A stretch of 64,000 nt of DNA from an uncultured virus (IMG/VR IMGVR_UViG_3300027278_000011) (Duplodnaviria > Heunggongvirae > Uroviricota > Caudoviricetes > Schitoviridae), in the IMG/VR virus record IMGVR_UViG_3300027278_000011; one strand, given 5' to 3'. Within the stretch, counting starts at the first letter, position 1; each line of letters begins with the position of its first letter. Below the pieces are notes generated by a model that was not told where the DNA came from, did not search any database, and saw nothing but the letters and a program-made list of their open reading frames with translations. This document shows, in pieces, positions 1-41,675 of the stretch. A program made the translations under genes and the position numbers.

Positions 1-44
1 GCGAGACAGCGTTTCAGCTTTGGTAGGGCAGCGCATAGCAACTC

Positions 45-341
45 CTAGAATGGAGAAGGCACTAGCTCCTCCATTGATGATATTGGATGGAAGTGAACGT
101 ACCGTTCTTTTTTGGTATATCCACATTTCTTACAGCCAGCACTTCCACCGAACTCGTACTGACATTCAATACAGTCCACGGTGTAAGTTTCTCTGACATA
201 AATGATGTTGTTGATGATCCGGTAAATCCTGCGATGATCCAGTCGATGACCAGCAAGGTTCTCGGCATAGGCGAAAGTGCTATCTACCAAGTAAGCCCGA
301 CCCTGTTTAGGATCGAACTCAGAGATCTGAACTTTCCCCAT
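45..341 (-). CDS. Hypothetical protein with CxxC..CxxC zinc-finger-like motif
   Basis: 98-aa ORF with CIEC...CKKC. GAGG upstream; overlaps the stop of the 319-843 gene; same strand as neighbours. Confidence 0.65.
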   Translation of the reverse strand: MGKVQISEFDPKQGRAYLVDSTFAYAENLAGHRLDHRRIYRIINNIIYVRETYTVDCIECQYEFGGSAGCKKCGYTKKERYVHFHPISSMEELVPSPF

Positions 342-843
342 GATTCACCTCCACAATGGGTTTGGTGTGGGTGCAGTGTTGGCACTTCCAATGCCGATGT
401 TTGTGATAACCGGCAAGCCGCATAGGCTTCATGTGGCAGCGTGGAGGCTCGATTACTTCCACTGGTTCCTCTTTCCAGGTGTTACGCAGGAAGGGGCCAG
501 AGACACGGGCTTCTTGCCAGGCCAAGCGTTGTTCTACGGTGGAATCTGGTTGAGGCAACCAGATCTCAAAAGAGCGGTCGATGATCTTCAAAACGGCGTT
601 CCACACCTTCTGATCATCTGGCTCACGGGACAACCGTTTCATATTGGGTTGGTGCTCAAGGCATACCTTGTCCACCAGACGACGTGCCAGCTTACGCAGT
701 GCGTCTGCACTGTCTTCAAAGCGGATAACTAGGGCGAAGCACAAGGCGATGTCACCGGGGTGCCAACTTCCGCCTGAGCGAGTGATGTAGCTGCGTTTCG
801 GTAGAGCTTTGGGGAGGGTCACGATGTTGGTGTGCTTCTTCAT
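319..843 (-). CDS. Hypothetical protein (174 aa) with C-terminal Cys/His cluster
   Basis: Start re-called at ATG 843 (MKKHTNIV) after AGGAAG. The track's extension to 1203 runs through the structured non-coding region and is probably not coding. Confidence 0.65.
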   Translation of the reverse strand: MKKHTNIVTLPKALPKRSYITRSGGSWHPGDIALCFALVIRFEDSADALRKLARRLVDKVCLEHQPNMKRLSREPDDQKVWNAVLKIIDRSFEIWLPQPDSTVEQRLAWQEARVSGPFLRNTWKEEPVEVIEPPRCHMKPMRLAGYHKHRHWKCQHCTHTKPIVEVNHGESSDL

Positions 844-867
844 CTCTAACTTCCTGATTACTAGAGA

Positions 868-1606
868 AAATCCCCCCTGCTGACTTTTCGCTTCCGAACC
901 ACAAGGGTATGAGAAACAGCAGGGGGGATTTGCGTGGTTGCAGGTAACTGCATTGGGGCGTGCTTTCCAGGGGAGGCTAATCCCGCCCGGAAGGGTGAAC
1001 CTGAAAAGCACACTCCAATGCAGTTGACGTTGGCGATTCGGGGGGACGCCAACTGCACTGGGACACAGAACTGTCAGCTCTTGCCGTCCATAGACCGTCT
1101 GTACGGCGGAACCTATGCCCGTTTGTGACGGGGAGCTGATCTCATGTTTCAGCCTCTTGCATCGAGGAAATTTCTGGAGGACGCCTCCTTCATTCGTCCA
1201 CATTTTACCCGTGTACTAGCTCCGGAGCGGGTTAGAGGTACGTGACTTGGCAGCTACTTGGTGCGGGCCTGCCCGCTCGAATTTACCTTTCTGACTCAGT
1301 GCCCTGAGTCGATTTCACTGTTGCTCACCCAGAAACTTCCTCGATGCAATCTGCATCTGAGGTGACTCTGTATCGTCGTGCCCATTTTTGGCTTGTCAGG
1401 GAGACGAATCCCTGACCCTACTCACAGGCTACAGAGCCACCTCAGATGCAGTCTGATAGGGCGTAAATCCCATCAGATGATCTGGCCGGTTGCACTCTCT
1501 TTCCGGCGTCAGCGCTGGTACAGGGGTTGCCTGACTTTCCAACTGACTGCTTGACCTTACCGTGGCCTACCCGTGCCGTGTGTCAGACGGCAAGACGCAG
1601 GGACGA
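868..1606 (-). ncRNA. Candidate large structured non-coding RNA or array of stem-flanked RNA modules
   Basis: Inverted repeats 868-882/917-931 (15/15), 946-971/1000-1025 (23/26), 1157-1177/1329-1349 (20/21), 1351-1372/1430-1451 (21/22), plus many internal hairpins. Most mismatches are G-U on the minus strand. Confidence 0.6.
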
Positions 1607-1801
1607 TTACTCGTCGCTGGCTTCCCCGGCTTCCGCTTTCACAACGCGATTACGGACGGCCTGGAAACTTTCATCAACGGTGATCTCATCACCGTTGTTC
1701 AGCAGCACGGTGGTGCCGTTTTCTTCGGCTAGGTAGGCCGAAATGTCGGAGGCACGGATGTCGATGTTCTTGCCTTTCACTTTACAACGAATGATGCTCA
1801 T
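1607..1801 (-). CDS. Small beta-rich hypothetical protein (64 aa)
   Basis: ATG after AAGGAAAAACCA; FlbD/LytTR-like beta pattern (GTTVLLNNGDEITVDES). Confidence 0.7.
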   Translation of the reverse strand: MSIIRCKVKGKNIDIRASDISAYLAEENGTTVLLNNGDEITVDESFQAVRNRVVKAEAGEASDE

Positions 1802-1852
1802 TGGTTTTTCCTTGTAGTGGGAAACAACGGGTTATTCACCCCAAGCAACGAA

Positions 1853-2437
1853 TTACAGTGGCTCAGCACCACCATGACCATTGGGGCAAGTGACCCCGCC
1901 CGGAGAATCAAACTGGGCCAGGTTGCACACAGAGCAATAGGTTCCAGTAGCCTGCAAAGCAGCCACAGGTTCATCCCGTTGGTTCTGGTACTTGCCCTCG
2001 TATTGAGCGTACTCAGCGTTTTGATGGAACAACACTTGAGCAATGCCCGAACCGGCTTTGATGTGAAGCACATCATTGCCGTGGTAAACGAGTTCCAGAG
2101 TCAGAAAGCCATTCCAGCCGGGTTCGATGACTGTGTTGAACACGGACAGCCCTTTACGTGCCCAGGTGGACTTATCATGGACAATGCCAGTCATGTTCCG
2201 AGGCATTTTGAACTCTTCAATGGCAGAGGCCAAAGTGAAACGTCCTTCCTGACATTTGCCATCCACCATCACTTGAGGCCCAAGTGATCCTTTGATGAAG
2301 AAGGAGACATCCTGCTTGATGCGGATGTCATACCCGGCTTCACCCAGGCCGTAGCTGGTGCCTTCTGCATTTTCCTTACATGGCACCATATCCACGATAG
2401 GTTGCGTCATTAGCAGCTTGATACCGTTAATAATCAT
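1853..2437 (-). CDS. dcd: dCTP deaminase/dUTPase-family protein with C-terminal zinc ribbon
   Basis: Motifs AGYDIRI, DKSTWARKG, VIEPGWNGFLTLEL, GIAQVLF, YEGKYQNQ. N4 gp26-like position. Confidence 0.9.
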   Translation of the reverse strand: MIINGIKLLMTQPIVDMVPCKENAEGTSYGLGEAGYDIRIKQDVSFFIKGSLGPQVMVDGKCQEGRFTLASAIEEFKMPRNMTGIVHDKSTWARKGLSVFNTVIEPGWNGFLTLELVYHGNDVLHIKAGSGIAQVLFHQNAEYAQYEGKYQNQRDEPVAALQATGTYCSVCNLAQFDSPGGVTCPNGHGGAEPL

Positions 2438-2438
2438 G

Positions 2439-3605
2439 TCAGCTCCTGATGTGAATGAGTTTGCCGAAAGGCACTGTCTTACCGGAAGCGTTTACTGCCA
2501 CCCAGATGACTGGAATGTGATGATCCAGCGGTTTCATGGCTGGGCAATCCAGGTCAGAGAAGATGACTGCTGCAGTTGGACGATGCTGCTCAATGTGCTC
2601 ACGCACAGGAACCAATGAAGTGCCGCCACGACCTACAACGACGATCTTCTCAAAACGATCGTCTTCCTCAAAGACATATTGGGCCGTGATTCGGGTGTCG
2701 AAGAGTACCAGAGTCAGCTTCAACGGGTTGAACTTCTCCTTGATGTACTTCACTTCAGAGTTGAAACGAAGCACGTCTTGGTCGCTGATCGACCCCGACA
2801 CGTCCAGGTAATAGGCCAGATGTTCTAGTTTCCCTTCGTCCTTGATCATGGACGGCAGGTACAGATCATCATGCAGATGGCGTCTGTTGGGACGTGCCCA
2901 ACTGAAATCCTCATCACAGAGTTCCGTGAAGAACTCTTGCAGATGCTGCTCCCACGGCACAATTGGTGTCAGGAACTTGTCGATGATCTGTTCCAGTTCA
3001 CCGGGGATAGAGCCAGCAGCACCGGCCAATTTGGCTTGCTGCATGGCCTTCACCACGTTGTTGATGCAGCCGTGTACGGCATCTGCTGGAGCAGCCACCA
3101 TGTCACCCTGACCAGAATCTCCGCTACCACTACCACCCCAGCTACCACCACCAGAGGGCGGTTGCTGGTTGTTGGACATGAGCAGATCGTAAATATCCTC
3201 CTCAGTGAGGCGACCGTTGGCATCCACAGACTGATCTTTCCAGCACCATTCGACCTGATCGAAGGAGTAGCCCTCTTTTTCGAGGTCATTGTTGATGCGG
3301 ATGTCACAGGCGTAGTTCCAGATCTCTATGTCACGAGTGCCACGACGAAGATCATGTAATTTGCCAGGGTGCCAGAGTTCGTGAACCAGAACGGTTTCAC
3401 GAGTCTTTCGCGGCAGTGACAGGAACCAGTGGGGATTCCACCAGAGGTGAACACCATCCGTCTGGGCTGTCTCAATGGTTTCATCCCAGATGAACTCCAG
3501 AGAGCACATCAGGGAACCAAGGAAAGCGGCATTGGACTTCAGGAAGACCGTTGATTTGGTGATGTCCAGTTCCCGTTGAAGTACCGCTTGATCAAGCTCG
3601 GACAT
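2439..3605 (-). CDS. Metallopeptidase plus VWA domain protein (N4 gp25-like)
   Basis: HELWH zinc motif, WNYACD, VWA MIDAS DVSGS, GRGGT; adjacent to a MoxR-like ATPase. Confidence 0.88.
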   Translation of the reverse strand: MSELDQAVLQRELDITKSTVFLKSNAAFLGSLMCSLEFIWDETIETAQTDGVHLWWNPHWFLSLPRKTRETVLVHELWHPGKLHDLRRGTRDIEIWNYACDIRINNDLEKEGYSFDQVEWCWKDQSVDANGRLTEEDIYDLLMSNNQQPPSGGGSWGGSGSGDSGQGDMVAAPADAVHGCINNVVKAMQQAKLAGAAGSIPGELEQIIDKFLTPIVPWEQHLQEFFTELCDEDFSWARPNRRHLHDDLYLPSMIKDEGKLEHLAYYLDVSGSISDQDVLRFNSEVKYIKEKFNPLKLTLVLFDTRITAQYVFEEDDRFEKIVVVGRGGTSLVPVREHIEQHRPTAAVIFSDLDCPAMKPLDHHIPVIWVAVNASGKTVPFGKLIHIRS

Positions 3606-3621
3606 TGGTATTCTCCTTGGT

Positions 3622-4656
3622 TCACATGCTCAGGTACTTGGTCAGTTCCGACATTGCCTTGGCAAAGGCCGGGTGCTTACGCAGCTCAGCATTCCGTACC
3701 ATCGTGGAACGGAAGAACAGAATGCGGAAGTCCAAGGGAAAGCGATTGGCGTAAGTGGCGAAGTTGCCGAAAGTTTTTTCGGACACCTTCTCCATCATGG
3801 AGGAGATGACTGCCCAACGAGTGGCATTGTCGTGGGGCAAGAAGACATTTTCCGGATCACGAAGAATGTCTTCTACTTTCACCATAGTGCTGAATACTTT
3901 GTTGAATTGGATCAACTCAACTGCCACGCCGGATGTGATCGTGCCAGCATAAAGTGCTGCCTTGTCATCAGGCATACTTTTGCCCTTCACCAGTTTGTTC
4001 ATGAACTCCCAGGTGCGGGGGCAGCAGAACGTCTTTTCATTGTGGTCTGGCTTGAAGTCCATCAGTTTGGACGGGTACTGCGACAGGAATGCAATGATGC
4101 GCTTGTCGTAGTTTTGCTTCAGGGCCACGTCCATCAGCCACTCATCGAAGTCCAGTTCCAGTTCCAGATGCACCATACGGCTCTGCAGTGCGGTGCTGAT
4201 TGGGTTGACGATGGCACGGTCAGTGGCCAAGTTGCCTGCAGCAACGATTGCCACGTTGGAGTTCAGCTTCTTCTGACCGGTCATGCGGTCGAGAATCAGC
4301 TTGTAGGCAGGTGCCTGAATCGACTTCGGTGCCGAATTGAACTCATCGAGGAACAGCATCCACCCATCTTTGCCATCCGGCAGCGGTGTGTAATCCAGTG
4401 GGAACAGCTCAGCGAACGGTGCAAAGGTTGCCTCACCGTGTTCGTTGAAGCGTGGCAGGCCGGTCATGTCTTCCGGGGTAGACGTGGACAGGCGATGGTC
4501 AATCATCTTGAGATTGAACTCGGCAGCAACACTGTGGGTGATGGCAGATTTGCCCATACCAGGGGAGCTGGTGACATACGGCACCAAGCCAGCTTCGATG
4601 ACATCAATCATCAGCTCACGCAGTTTGCGTGGCTTACAGCGGTACAAGTTGGTCAT
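3622..4656 (-). CDS. MoxR-like AAA+ ATPase (N4 gp24-like)
   Basis: Walker A SSPGMGKS, Walker B LFLDEFN, AAGN, ALQSR, CPRTW. Start re-called at ATG 4656. Confidence 0.9.
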   Translation of the reverse strand: MTNLYRCKPRKLRELMIDVIEAGLVPYVTSSPGMGKSAITHSVAAEFNLKMIDHRLSTSTPEDMTGLPRFNEHGEATFAPFAELFPLDYTPLPDGKDGWMLFLDEFNSAPKSIQAPAYKLILDRMTGQKKLNSNVAIVAAGNLATDRAIVNPISTALQSRMVHLELELDFDEWLMDVALKQNYDKRIIAFLSQYPSKLMDFKPDHNEKTFCCPRTWEFMNKLVKGKSMPDDKAALYAGTITSGVAVELIQFNKVFSTMVKVEDILRDPENVFLPHDNATRWAVISSMMEKVSEKTFGNFATYANRFPLDFRILFFRSTMVRNAELRKHPAFAKAMSELTKYLSM

Positions 4657-41216: not shown

Positions 41217-41675
41217 ATGCAACCGACAAACGAATCTCTCTGGAGCCAACTGAGCGGACTTTTTGGTCTCAACAGTGGTGGTGCCCAGTCTTATCCAGCC
41301 GGTGATACCACTGCTGGTATGACCTATGGCACTGGTGGTGCCAATGGTGCCATGACTCAAGGTCAACTGGCCGACATGCTGAAAGGTCTGCAGGGTAACG
41401 GTGCAGGTACTGGGCTGGGCTTCAACATTGGCACTGGCCAGTTGGCTTTGGGTGGTCTGTCCTCTCTAGCCAATCTGTGGGGTGCCAATAAGCAAATGAA
41501 GTTGGCTGAAGATCAGTTCGATTTCACCAAGAAGATTGCCACCACCAACCTGAACAATCAGGTCAAGTCGTACAACACCGCGCTAGATGATCGCATTCGC
41601 TCCCGTGCTGCGATGGAAGGTTCCAGTTCTGCAGAGGCAGAGGCGTACCTAAACAAGAACCGACTGAGCGCATAA
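41217..41675 (+). CDS. Small ejection protein (N4 gp52-like)
   Basis: Gly-rich, Cys-free; NLNNQVKSYNTALDDRIRSR. Confidence 0.8.
   Translation: MQPTNESLWSQLSGLFGLNSGGAQSYPAGDTTAGMTYGTGGANGAMTQGQLADMLKGLQGNGAGTGLGFNIGTGQLALGGLSSLANLWGANKQMKLAEDQFDFTKKIATTNLNNQVKSYNTALDDRIRSRAAMEGSSSAEAEAYLNKNRLSA

What the first reader, a model, noticed from the sequence alone, without database searches (positions are those of the whole stretch)
868..1606. About 740 nt of densely folded non-coding sequence: candidate large phage ncRNA or RNA-module array
Seen: between two co-oriented genes lie four long helices, 868-882/917-931 (15 bp perfect), 946-971/1000-1025 (26 bp), 1157-1177/1329-1349 (21 bp) and 1351-1372/1430-1451 (22 bp). 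Shorter stems include TCAGCTC/GAGCTGA (1074-1139), TCTGAT/ATCAGA (1452-1477), GCCGG/CCGGC and TGCCGT/ACGGCA. The long helices close multibranch interiors such as GACTCAG/CTGAGTC, GCGGG/CCCGC and GTCAGGGA/TCCCTGAC. The helices at 1157-1349, 1351-1451 and 1452-1477 abut with 1- and 0-nt spacers, as in coaxially stacked RNA. Counting the alternative helix in the next finding, 6 of 7 mismatches are G-U wobbles on the minus (transcribed) strand, which favours selection on RNA over DNA cruciforms. I do not recognise it as tRNA, tmRNA, RNase P or an intron. Inference: either one large structured ncRNA or a polycistron of small RNAs excised from RNase III-type stems, possibly decoys for RNA-dependent defences (type III TA, retron, DRT or CRISPR).
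Basis: partly seen in the sequence, partly recalled or inferred. Interest (0 to 1): 0.85.

Follow-up and report, generated by a model that had tools for sequence, protein, structure and literature searches.

The report
Phage folded-RNA cluster with dimer-forming module
The 760-base gap between two genes of this N4-like phage is a string of separately folded RNA modules; one belongs to an uncatalogued RNA family that other phages carry at the head of their tRNA gene arrays and that looks built to pair with a second copy of itself.

Summary
The four long inverted repeats are at the stated coordinates. Three of them are the three longest in the 64-kb window. The interval folds far better than shuffles on both strands (z -7.5 and -9.4). 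Six of 7 mismatches are G-U on the minus strand.

The interval is not one large RNA. Module B (1157-1349, minus strand) belongs to a family of about 160 nt plus a long closing stem. I found 30 copies, 26 distinct, in Schitoviridae, Ackermannviridae and uncultured phages. In the family alignment 95.8% of cells are paired and 38 of 45 pairs show double changes. A covarying pseudoknot is present.

Sixteen of 26 members lie upstream of co-oriented tRNA genes, 11 of them 16-17 nt from the first tRNA. One hairpin loop carries a self-complementary word in 26 of 26 copies, switching CCGG/CUAG/GCGC/CAUG. That predicts a kissing-loop homodimer.

Close wastewater relatives lack exactly 1155-1349. There is no Rfam match and no paper was found. 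Modules A, C and D have no homologues. Function is unknown, and transcription and RNase III cutting are inferred. The defence-decoy idea has no support.

The parts
844..1606 (-). Whole untranslated interval between the 64-aa gene (1607-1801) and the 174-aa gene (319-843); a string of hairpin-closed modules
   Evidence: ORF list and PHROG hits of the flanks; fold z -7.5; start of the 174-aa protein at 843 supported by homologues aligning from residue 1-2
1157..1349 (-). Module B: member of the conserved phage RNA family (closing stem P1 1157-1177/1329-1349; core 1169-1337)
   Evidence: Covariance model R1 scores 176.9 bits; family covariation; exactly this block (1155-1349) is absent in wastewater relatives
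1208..1231 (-). P8 hairpin of module B; its loop holds the 8-nt self-complementary word CUCCGGAG (plus-strand 1220-1227), the predicted kissing-loop dimerisation site
   Evidence: Self-complementary word in the P8 loop of 26 of 26 family members, 18 of 18 distinct loops, against 7.1 expected from shuffles
1179..1199 (-). P9 hairpin of module B (1195-1199/1179-1183); loop bases 1184-1187 pair with 1235-1238 to form pseudoknot P7
   Evidence: P7 paired in 26 of 26 sequences with AU/UA/CG at its third pair; all 5 P9 pairs show double changes
1235..1238 (-). 5' strand of pseudoknot P7, inside the near-invariant word ACGUACCNCUAA
1351..1451 (-). Module A: 22-bp closing stem beginning CUGCAU, 57-nt interior with hairpin GUCAGGGA/UCCCUGAC
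   Evidence: no homologue found by blastn in held loci; 2.8-4.2% divergence in wastewater contigs against 5.4-9.8% in the flanking genes
1452..1477 (-). Small hairpin flush (0 nt) against module A
1074..1139 (-). Three-way module closed by the 7-bp stem UCAGCUC/GAGCUGA
946..1025 (-). Module C: 26-bp closing stem beginning CUGCAU, 28-nt apical part; alternative helix 1015-1030/1046-1061
   Evidence: 0-0.9% divergence in wastewater contigs
868..931 (-). Module D: perfect 15-bp stem with a 34-nt loop, followed by a U-rich run and the ribosome-binding site of the 174-aa gene; terminator-like or processing hairpin
   Evidence: not called by the terminator scan, whose loop limit is 3-8 nt

Best explanation
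The interval is an untranslated stretch of a minus-strand transcript that carries a row of independently folding RNA modules. Each is closed by a long stem of 15-26 bp, and they are packed flush like genes in a tRNA array. One of them, module B, is a real RNA gene of an uncatalogued family. It has a long closing stem (P1, about 17-30 bp), a 5' three-way junction (P2-P6) and a 3' pseudoknot (P7/P9 with an inserted hairpin, P8). In other phages this RNA sits at the head of, or inside, a tRNA gene array on the tRNA strand. I infer that the modules are released from the precursor by a double-strand-specific nuclease (RNase III) cutting the closing stems. Where a tRNA follows, RNase P cutting at the tRNA 5' end would trim the 3' side, because that end lies 0-1 nt from the base of P1. 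I further infer that the released B RNA pairs with a second copy through the self-complementary P8 loop, giving a symmetric homodimer that acts in trans on something conserved across Proteobacteria. Shown here: the fold, the family, the strand, the tRNA linkage, the palindromic loop and the cassette-like presence or absence. Inferred: transcription in this phage, the nucleases, dimer formation and any target.
For: Family and fold: R1, built from 4 sequences, finds 30 matches (26 distinct) at 63-177 bits among the 40 sources given to it. On that alignment 95.8% of 1135 cells are standard pairs, against 67.0% in shuffles and 40-45% with partners slid. Thirty-eight of 45 pairs change on both sides. 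The covariation score is 0.733, against 0.06-0.11 slid and 0 of 500 shuffles as high. Strand: 70 G-U cells against 16 A-C cells on the modelled strand; every tRNA in member loci is co-oriented; 6 of 7 window mismatches are G-U on minus. Spread: 29 phage records in two families, none with an RNA feature annotated there ('none' under the match in 22, 'hypothetical protein' in 3, no annotation in 4). Metagenome, viral-contig and MAG copies were also found. tRNA link: 16 of 26 have same-strand tRNAs downstream, 11 at 16-17 nt, and 1 has a tRNA 5 nt upstream. Long P1: 7-21 further pairs beyond the 9 modelled, in 23 of 23 hits examined. Dimer signature: a self-complementary word in 26 of 26 P8 loops (18 of 18 distinct, 7.1 expected). 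It sits at loop positions 3-6 in 11 of 11 distinct 7-nt loops and switches between at least 8 different words. The same argument was used for the symmetric kissing loops of OLE and GOLLD (PMC12286853, passages read). Modularity: contigs of a DNA run (depth 65) and two RNA-library runs join 1154 to 1350, while a B-containing contig (1218-1413) is also present. The syntenic interval of the nearest relative (dCTP deaminase 76% aa) shares only B. Constraint: in those contigs 821-1154 differs by 0-0.9% and 1350-1585 by 2.8-4.2%, against 5.4-9.8% in the flanking genes. Precedent: N4-like phage LUZ7 has an intergenic hotspot of RNAs under 250 nt, one apparently processed (PMC9163698, passages read).
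Against: No read-level evidence shows that this interval is transcribed or where the RNAs end. The runs laid are contigs of libraries that may contain DNA, and flanking genes are covered at similar depth. Modules A, C and D have no homologue in anything searched, so their status as RNAs rests on stem quality, wobble bias and low divergence only. The plus strand folds slightly better than the minus strand. Ten of 26 family members, including this window, have no tRNA in the flank held. Long-stem clusters downstream of dCTP deaminase are not a general Schitoviridae trait: 4 of 63 loci downstream against 5 of 59 upstream by a strict count, and R1 finds no copy in 64 such loci. The alignment used for pair counts was fitted to the model, which favours it. 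The P8 loops are not independent samples, because the sequences are related.
Confidence: 0.6

Rival explanations
1. The modules are primarily mobile DNA cassettes: hairpin-ended, non-autonomous elements comparable to palindrome-associated elements or integron attC-type sites. They would insert and excise at the base of their stems, and the RNA fold would be secondary.
For: Exact loss of 1155-1349 in close relatives, with a 3-nt TCT repeat at both edges. All long closing stems in the Pseudomonas-type relatives begin (U)UGCAU and end AUGCA(A) while the inner stem varies. B is 76-77% identical between unrelated phage families. B takes a different position in the orthologous interval of L002.
Against: Covariation includes a pseudoknot and a 70:16 G-U to A-C bias on one strand, which DNA cruciforms do not produce. 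Unpaired core nucleotides are near-invariant. No transposase or integrase was seen among the neighbours scanned. Loss between short repeats at the base of a long palindrome is also what replication slippage gives (established knowledge, recalled). The two readings are not exclusive.
Confidence: 0.15
2. B and its neighbours are cis-acting leader elements of the transcript. They would stabilise it, block Rho or other termination across a long untranslated stretch, or sense a ligand, rather than act as free RNAs.
For: B is the first element of the tRNA operon in 11 of 26 members, and only 1 of 26 has a tRNA upstream. The window interval is 763 nt of untranslated RNA ahead of a gene. Highly conserved unpaired nucleotides suit a binding site.
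Against: The 3' arm of P1 abuts the first tRNA with no room for an expression platform or terminator. In L041 the element lies between tRNAs. The self-complementary P8 loop argues for an intermolecular contact. Carriers use different RNA polymerases: N4-like phages have their own enzymes and Ackermannviridae use the host's (established knowledge, recalled).
Confidence: 0.12
3. The whole 740 nt is one large ornate RNA of the GOLLD/ROOL kind.
For: Size, density of helices, abutting stems and low divergence of the whole interval. GOLLD and ROOL are phage RNAs often near tRNA islands (PMC12286853, passages read).
Against: There is no GOLLD, ROOL or other Rfam match. B stands alone elsewhere with its own closing stem. 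A natural B-less form exists. The nearest relative keeps only B. No long-range helix spanning modules is stable in the centroid fold.
Confidence: 0.06
4. The modules are decoys or sponges for RNA-dependent host defences or for tRNA-targeting nucleases.
For: There is circumstantial support only. B travels with phage tRNA arrays, which are thought to counter tRNA-cleaving defences (recalled). Some relatives' modules carry T-loop-like hairpins, UUCGAAU or UUCGACU.
Against: No similarity was found to any retron, ToxI-type, CRISPR or other RNA in Rfam. There are no tandem repeats. ARAGORN calls no tRNA-like gene. No defence or counter-defence protein was recognised next to it.
Confidence: 0.07

Closest known systems
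Phage T4 small stable RNAs, species 1 (rnaC, 139 nt) and species 2 (rnaD, 119 nt)
   Same: Small stable RNAs encoded inside a phage tRNA gene cluster, co-oriented and flush with a tRNA (T4 record annotation). No function is stated in that annotation; that the function is still unknown is recalled.
   Different: No sequence or structure likeness: R1 with filters off gives nothing above 9 bits in the T4 tRNA region. T4 rnaC ends in a canonical T-arm; B has none.
GOLLD and ROOL RNAs (large ornate phage RNAs)
   Same: Phage-encoded, often near tRNA islands, function unknown. They form homo-oligomers through kissing loops, supported by palindromic loop words that switch between palindromes (PMC12286853, passages read).
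   Different: B is about 160-220 nt, not about 580-800 or more. There is no Rfam match. Only one self-complementary loop is seen, which predicts a dimer rather than a cage.
LUZ7 intergenic small-RNA hotspot (orf69-orf70)
   Same: An N4-like Pseudomonas phage with a 400-nt intergenic region giving several RNAs under 250 nt, one apparently made by processing (PMC9163698, passages read). The region is also strongly structured (z -6.15).
   Different: It lies at another place in the genome, after the SSB and gp46-like genes. It is not homologous to B, and its stems are shorter, at 11-19 nt.
RNase III processing stems of rRNA precursors and phage T7 early mRNA
   Same: Long stems formed by sequences flanking a functional RNA, about two helical turns, sometimes with a small internal loop (recalled knowledge). 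B's P1 is about 17-30 bp in all 23 hits examined.
   Different: No cleavage has been shown here; this is a 'works like' inference only.
Kissing-loop dimerisation sites such as the retroviral DIS hairpin
   Same: A hairpin loop with a central self-complementary word that varies between strains while staying self-complementary (recalled).
   Different: The setting is different (a phage small RNA) and the loop is mostly 7 nt with a 4-nt core.

Membership tests
Any Rfam 15 family | cmscan match at or near the family's gathering score | tested here: not met
   The best match in 600-1900 is a microRNA model at 19.2 bits against a gathering score of 44, E 0.75. In five related loci only true tRNAs pass.
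tRNA / tmRNA | Cloverleaf or tRNA-like domain recognised by ARAGORN | tested here: not met
   0 genes in the 64-kb window and 0 in Zuri, Ebordelon, Arace01 and L002.
GOLLD / ROOL | Match to the Rfam models; size above 500 nt | tested here: not met
   No match at E up to 10. B is about 190 nt with its stem.
T4 rnaC / rnaD | Sequence and structure likeness to the T4 RNAs | tested here: not met
   R1 with filters off on T4 68000-76000: best 9.0 bits, and not at rnaC or rnaD.
Module-B RNA family (defined here) | Helices P1-P6, P8 and P9 in order, with the core word ACGUACCNCUAA | tested here: met
   Window 1168-1337 scores 176.9 bits over model positions 1-160. The window sequence was one of the four used to build the model, so this score is partly by construction.
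Module-B RNA family (defined here) | Pseudoknot P7 between the core word and the P9 loop | tested here: met
   CCUC (1235-1238) pairs with GAGG (1184-1187). It is paired in 26 of 26 members with three pair types at position 3.
Module-B RNA family (defined here) | Self-complementary word in the P8 loop | tested here: met
   The window has CUCCGGAG; 26 of 26 members have a word of 4 nt or more.
Module-B RNA family (defined here) | Co-oriented tRNA genes downstream | tested here: not met
   There is no tRNA in the window. 16 of 26 members have them, so this is frequent but not defining.
Type III toxin-antitoxin RNA / CRISPR array | Tandem direct repeats of a short unit | tested here: not met
   Only weak two-copy direct repeats of 12-31 nt in 600-1900.
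Retron or DRT non-coding RNA | Adjacent reverse transcriptase gene | tested here: not met
   The six neighbouring proteins match PHROGs for dCTP deaminase, ATPase, a gp25-like protein and unknowns. Pfam gives DUF7740 and weak hits only.
Intrinsic terminator (module D only) | GC-rich stem, short loop, U-run | tested here: inconclusive
   The stem and a U-rich tail are present, but the loop is 34 nt. The scan, which allows loops of 3-8 nt, does not call it.
RNase III substrate | Cleavage by RNase III in the stem | not testable with these tools
   Only stem length, 15-30 bp, is known.

The most novel reading that the evidence does not exclude
Module B is a small RNA-only machine. It would be a self-dimerising (possibly higher-order) phage RNA that rides in tRNA arrays as a discrete, horizontally exchanged cassette and acts on a conserved part of the host translation or RNA-processing apparatus. 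That would make it a compact relative in kind of the GOLLD/ROOL assemblies. Modules A, C and D would be further, lineage-specific cargo of the same hairpin-cassette system, marked by UGCAU...AUGCA ends.
Probability: 0.25. Interest if true: 0.88.

Novelty: new variant of a known kind. Interest (0 to 1): 0.72.

Why it matters
Structured RNAs of unknown function beside phage tRNA genes are a long-standing puzzle. T4 species 1 and 2 RNAs have been known for decades (recalled). GOLLD and ROOL were recently shown to form RNA-only assemblies (PMC12286853, passages read). The family found here is small enough for routine biochemistry. It has a well-determined fold with a pseudoknot. It carries a clear, testable signature of self-pairing. 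It also occurs in cultured phages of Klebsiella, Salmonella and E. coli from two unrelated families, and natural plus and minus variants exist. That makes the question of what these tRNA-array RNAs do directly approachable by deletion, trans-complementation, native gels and cryo-EM. It also shows that some annotated 'hypothetical proteins' in Ackermannviridae genomes overlie an RNA gene.

Tried and rejected
- **megablast of window 1-4000 against phages:** no match.
- **Window's own assembly:** not held. The nearest held record, G001, has no match to 600-1900.
- **The 174-aa protein as a synteny anchor:** it led to unrelated Pseudomonas phages without the interval.
- **The search for related loci with the gp25-like protein alone:** nothing found.
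- **R1 on other relatives:** filters off on Zuri, Ebordelon, Arace01, CL and Holyagarpour gave no copy of B. R1 also found none in 64 IMG/VR Schitoviridae loci or in LUZ7 1-50000.
- **Pattern false positives:** L029, L043 and L045 match the DNA pattern but not the model. So do L047, L050-L052, L057, L063 and L064.
- **Consensus fold of module A with the long-stem modules of Ebordelon, Zuri, CL and Arace01:** only the UGCAU/AUGCA base is shared; no common interior was found.
- **First loose count of long stems near dCTP deaminase:** it did not separate downstream from upstream. The strict count shows no enrichment, so I dropped the idea of a family-wide hotspot.
- **Exact 26-nt word of module C in viral contigs:** 0 matches.
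- **Read laying:** it used contigs only, so depth and gaps in cover say nothing about expression. The slightly higher depth of the 795-1095 contig in one RNA library is not evidence.
- **Motif TTGCATTGGAGG with 3 mismatches:** no commoner in the window than in shuffles, 71 against 72.
- **Pfam on the small flanking proteins:** below cut-off apart from DUF7740.
- **Literature:** five topic or sequence-word searches returned nothing on this RNA. One further search found the LUZ7 paper.
- **Earlier scan notes:** none hold a look-alike sequence.

Full report
**What is there**

The window is most of an N4-like (Schitoviridae) phage genome. It has a 3813-aa ORF of virion RNA polymerase size. A gp25-like protein is 60% identical to that of the Pseudomonas putida phages Zuri, Holyagarpour and Ebordelon.

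The finding lies on the transcribed (minus) strand between a 64-aa gene (1607-1801, phrog_7594) and a 174-aa gene (319-843, phrog_7614). Upstream of these lie dCTP deaminase, the gp25-like gene and an ATPase.

The four long inverted repeats are exactly as described. Three of them are the three longest in the whole 64 kb. The interval folds 7.5 (minus) and 9.4 (plus) standard deviations below dinucleotide shuffles. Six of the seven non-Watson-Crick positions are G-U on the minus strand and A-C on the plus strand. There is no tRNA and no Rfam family.

**Module B is a member of a conserved RNA family**

A blastn hit of 73 nt to Klebsiella phage KpCHEMY26 fell in unannotated DNA next to a tRNA array. 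That hit, together with the orthologous interval of an IMG/VR contig (L002), showed that 1157-1349 is conserved on its own.

I built a covariance model from four sequences (A5, R1). I then widened the set in two ways:
- blastn with the Klebsiella copy found 29 phage records.
- One degenerate pattern, scanned over viral contigs, genomes and metagenomes, gave 12, 6 and 19 loci respectively.

R1 confirms 30 copies, 26 of them distinct, at 63-177 bits. Ten pattern matches were rejected.

On the model-fitted alignment, 95.8% of 1135 cells form standard pairs. The figure is 67% in column shuffles and 40-45% when partners are slid. Thirty-eight of 45 pairs change on both sides. The covariation score is 0.733 against 0.06-0.11 slid.

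The fold has these elements:
- A closing stem, P1.
- P2 and P3 leading to a three-way junction, with hairpin P4 (GGCA loop) and P5/P6 (an internal loop reading AUUCRAG).
- The near-invariant word ACGUACCNCUAA, then hairpin P8 and hairpin P9.
- A pseudoknot, P7, in which four bases of the P9 loop pair with CCNC of the invariant word. P7 is paired in 26 of 26 sequences, with A-U, U-A or C-G at its third pair.

G-U cells outnumber A-C cells 70 to 16 on the modelled strand. All tRNA genes in member loci are on that strand. The functional form is therefore RNA of the minus strand of the window.

**Where the family lives**

Carriers fall into three groups:
- Schitoviridae of Klebsiella and Salmonella (Pylasvirus, Triduovirus, Ithacavirus).
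- Ackermannviridae of about 157 kb infecting Klebsiella and E. coli (Taipeivirus and Aglimvirinae).
- GC-rich uncultured phages, some binned with Burkholderia or Comamonas genomes.

No record annotates an RNA there, and three place 'hypothetical proteins' over it.

Sixteen of 26 distinct members have co-oriented tRNAs downstream in the flank I held. In 11 the first tRNA starts 16-17 nt after the modelled end. In one contig the element sits between tRNA-Pro (5 nt upstream) and tRNA-Gln.

Those 16-17 nt are the outer 3' arm of P1. P1 extends 7-21 pairs beyond the nine modelled, in all 23 hits examined. The base of a stem of about 17-30 bp therefore touches the tRNA 5' end.

Ten members, including the window and L002, have no tRNA nearby.

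**A signature of self-pairing**

The P8 loop holds a self-complementary word of 4-8 nt in all 26 sequences. That is 18 of 18 distinct loops, where composition-preserving shuffles give 7.1.

In all 11 distinct 7-nt loops the 4-nt core occupies positions 3-6. The word changes between CCGG, CUAG, GCGC, CAUG, ACGU, GUAUAC, CUGGCCAG and UCGGCCGA; the window has CUCCGGAG.

Adjacent bases of one loop cannot pair with each other. Such switching between palindromes therefore indicates pairing between two molecules. This is the argument used for the symmetric kissing loops of OLE and GOLLD, which cryo-EM showed to be homo-oligomers (PMC12286853, passages read).

I therefore predict that B forms a symmetric homodimer. 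This was not tested.

**The interval is modular, not one RNA**

The nearest relative (L002; dCTP deaminase 76% aa, same gene order) also has about 835 nt of highly structured spacer (z -4.4) with several long stems. Only B is alike in sequence, and it takes a different position in the row.

Contigs from a wastewater DNA run (depth 65) and from two RNA-library runs join 1154 directly to 1350. They therefore lack exactly B with its closing stem, and a TCT triplet stands at both edges. A B-containing contig is also present at depth 6. Because the joined form stands in a DNA run, this is a DNA polymorphism and not splicing.

In the same contigs the non-coding parts differ from the window by 0-0.9% (821-1154) and 2.8-4.2% (1350-1585). 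The flanking genes differ by 5.4-9.8%. This points to constraint on the spacer or to recent exchange.

The other Pseudomonas N4-like phages I looked at were Zuri, Holyagarpour, Ebordelon, CL and Arace01. All carry one or two long-stem modules with interiors of 62-89 nt at the same place, some with T-loop-like hairpins. None has B.

Their stems, like those of A, B and C here, begin (U)UGCAU and end AUGCA(A).

This is not a general family trait. By a strict count, 4 of 63 IMG/VR Schitoviridae loci have such a stem within 1.5 kb downstream of dCTP deaminase, against 5 of 59 upstream.

**How it most likely works**

Shown here:
- The fold, the strand and the family.
- The frequent tRNA linkage.
- The palindromic loop.
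- Cassette-like presence or absence.

Inferred:
- The interval is transcribed with its neighbours.
- The long stems are cut by RNase III, and RNase P trims the junction where a tRNA follows.
- The released B RNA dimerises through P8.
- B acts in trans on something shared by Pseudomonas, Enterobacteria and Burkholderiales hosts. This is suggested because its unpaired core is nearly invariant across their phages.

A cis-acting leader role, a primarily DNA-level mobile cassette, a single giant RNA and a defence decoy are weighed in the rival explanations. None is excluded outright, and the cassette and RNA readings can both be true.

**Comparison with what is known**

The closest in setting are four groups:
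- T4 rnaC and rnaD, small stable RNAs in the T4 tRNA cluster. They are not homologous.
- GOLLD and ROOL. There is no Rfam match.
- The LUZ7 small-RNA hotspot, known from experiment. It is structured but unrelated.

Earlier notes of this scan report other uncatalogued RNAs in phage tRNA arrays. None shares sequence words with this family. I did not test their claims.

Six literature searches gave no description of this RNA. Subscription journals and supplements were not covered.

**Limits**

- Transcription, RNA ends, nuclease dependence, dimerisation and function are untested.
- Modules A, C and D stand on single-sequence evidence plus low divergence.
- The family census is limited to what blastn and one degenerate pattern could reach.

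Noticed in passing
L015:3106-3330 and L016:2877-3100: Directly after dCTP deaminase, Zuri and Ebordelon share an unannotated stretch whose differences fall mostly at every third base. It is rich in Cys codons and looks like a small unannotated gene.
   Followed up: no
L015:3590-3700: Zuri has a tRNA-like piece that ARAGORN does not call. It has a canonical T-arm (GUGGUUCGACUCCAC), and the flanking bases can form a 7-bp acceptor-like stem. L002:1690-1725 and Arace01 L017:3575-3600 have similar T-loop hairpins.
   Followed up: partly
window 41352-41456: A fourth long inverted repeat elsewhere in the window (22 bp, 1 mismatch, 61-nt loop). Its fold is not better than shuffles (z -1.5).
   Followed up: partly
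window 975-1000 (minus strand, apex of module C): The apical hairpin of module C has the loop UUCCGGGC, with the same CCGG core as many P8 loops of family B. It could in principle kiss B's P8 loop.
   Followed up: no
L001:4140-4165 (KpCHEMY26, upstream of the element): A 5-bp stem with a 3-nt loop followed by a T-run sits about 30 nt before the element, in the divergent promoter region. It could be a terminator or a hairpin-type promoter of the kind N4 virion RNA polymerase uses (the latter is recalled, not tested).
   Followed up: no
L021:2343-2458 and records PP738768, PP889490, PV891800: Ackermannviridae records annotate very small 'hypothetical proteins' (32-57 aa in Magnus) across the untranslated tRNA region. 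In three records they lie over the RNA element itself, so they are probably mis-calls.
   Followed up: no
L053:1754-1843, L060:846-933, L062:703-791: ARAGORN reports odd tRNAs in arrays downstream of the element: one with a 4-base anticodon (gtac), a tRNA-Tyr with anticodon ata and a tRNA-Ser with anticodon act.
   Followed up: no
L068:42644-43041 (LUZ7): The published small-RNA hotspot of LUZ7 is itself a row of stem-closed hairpins (stems of 11-19 nt, z -6.15).
   Followed up: partly
window 1-24: The metagenome contig locus L048 is identical to window 1-2449 except at four positions, all within 5-24. It is probably the same phage with a contig-end artefact.
   Followed up: no
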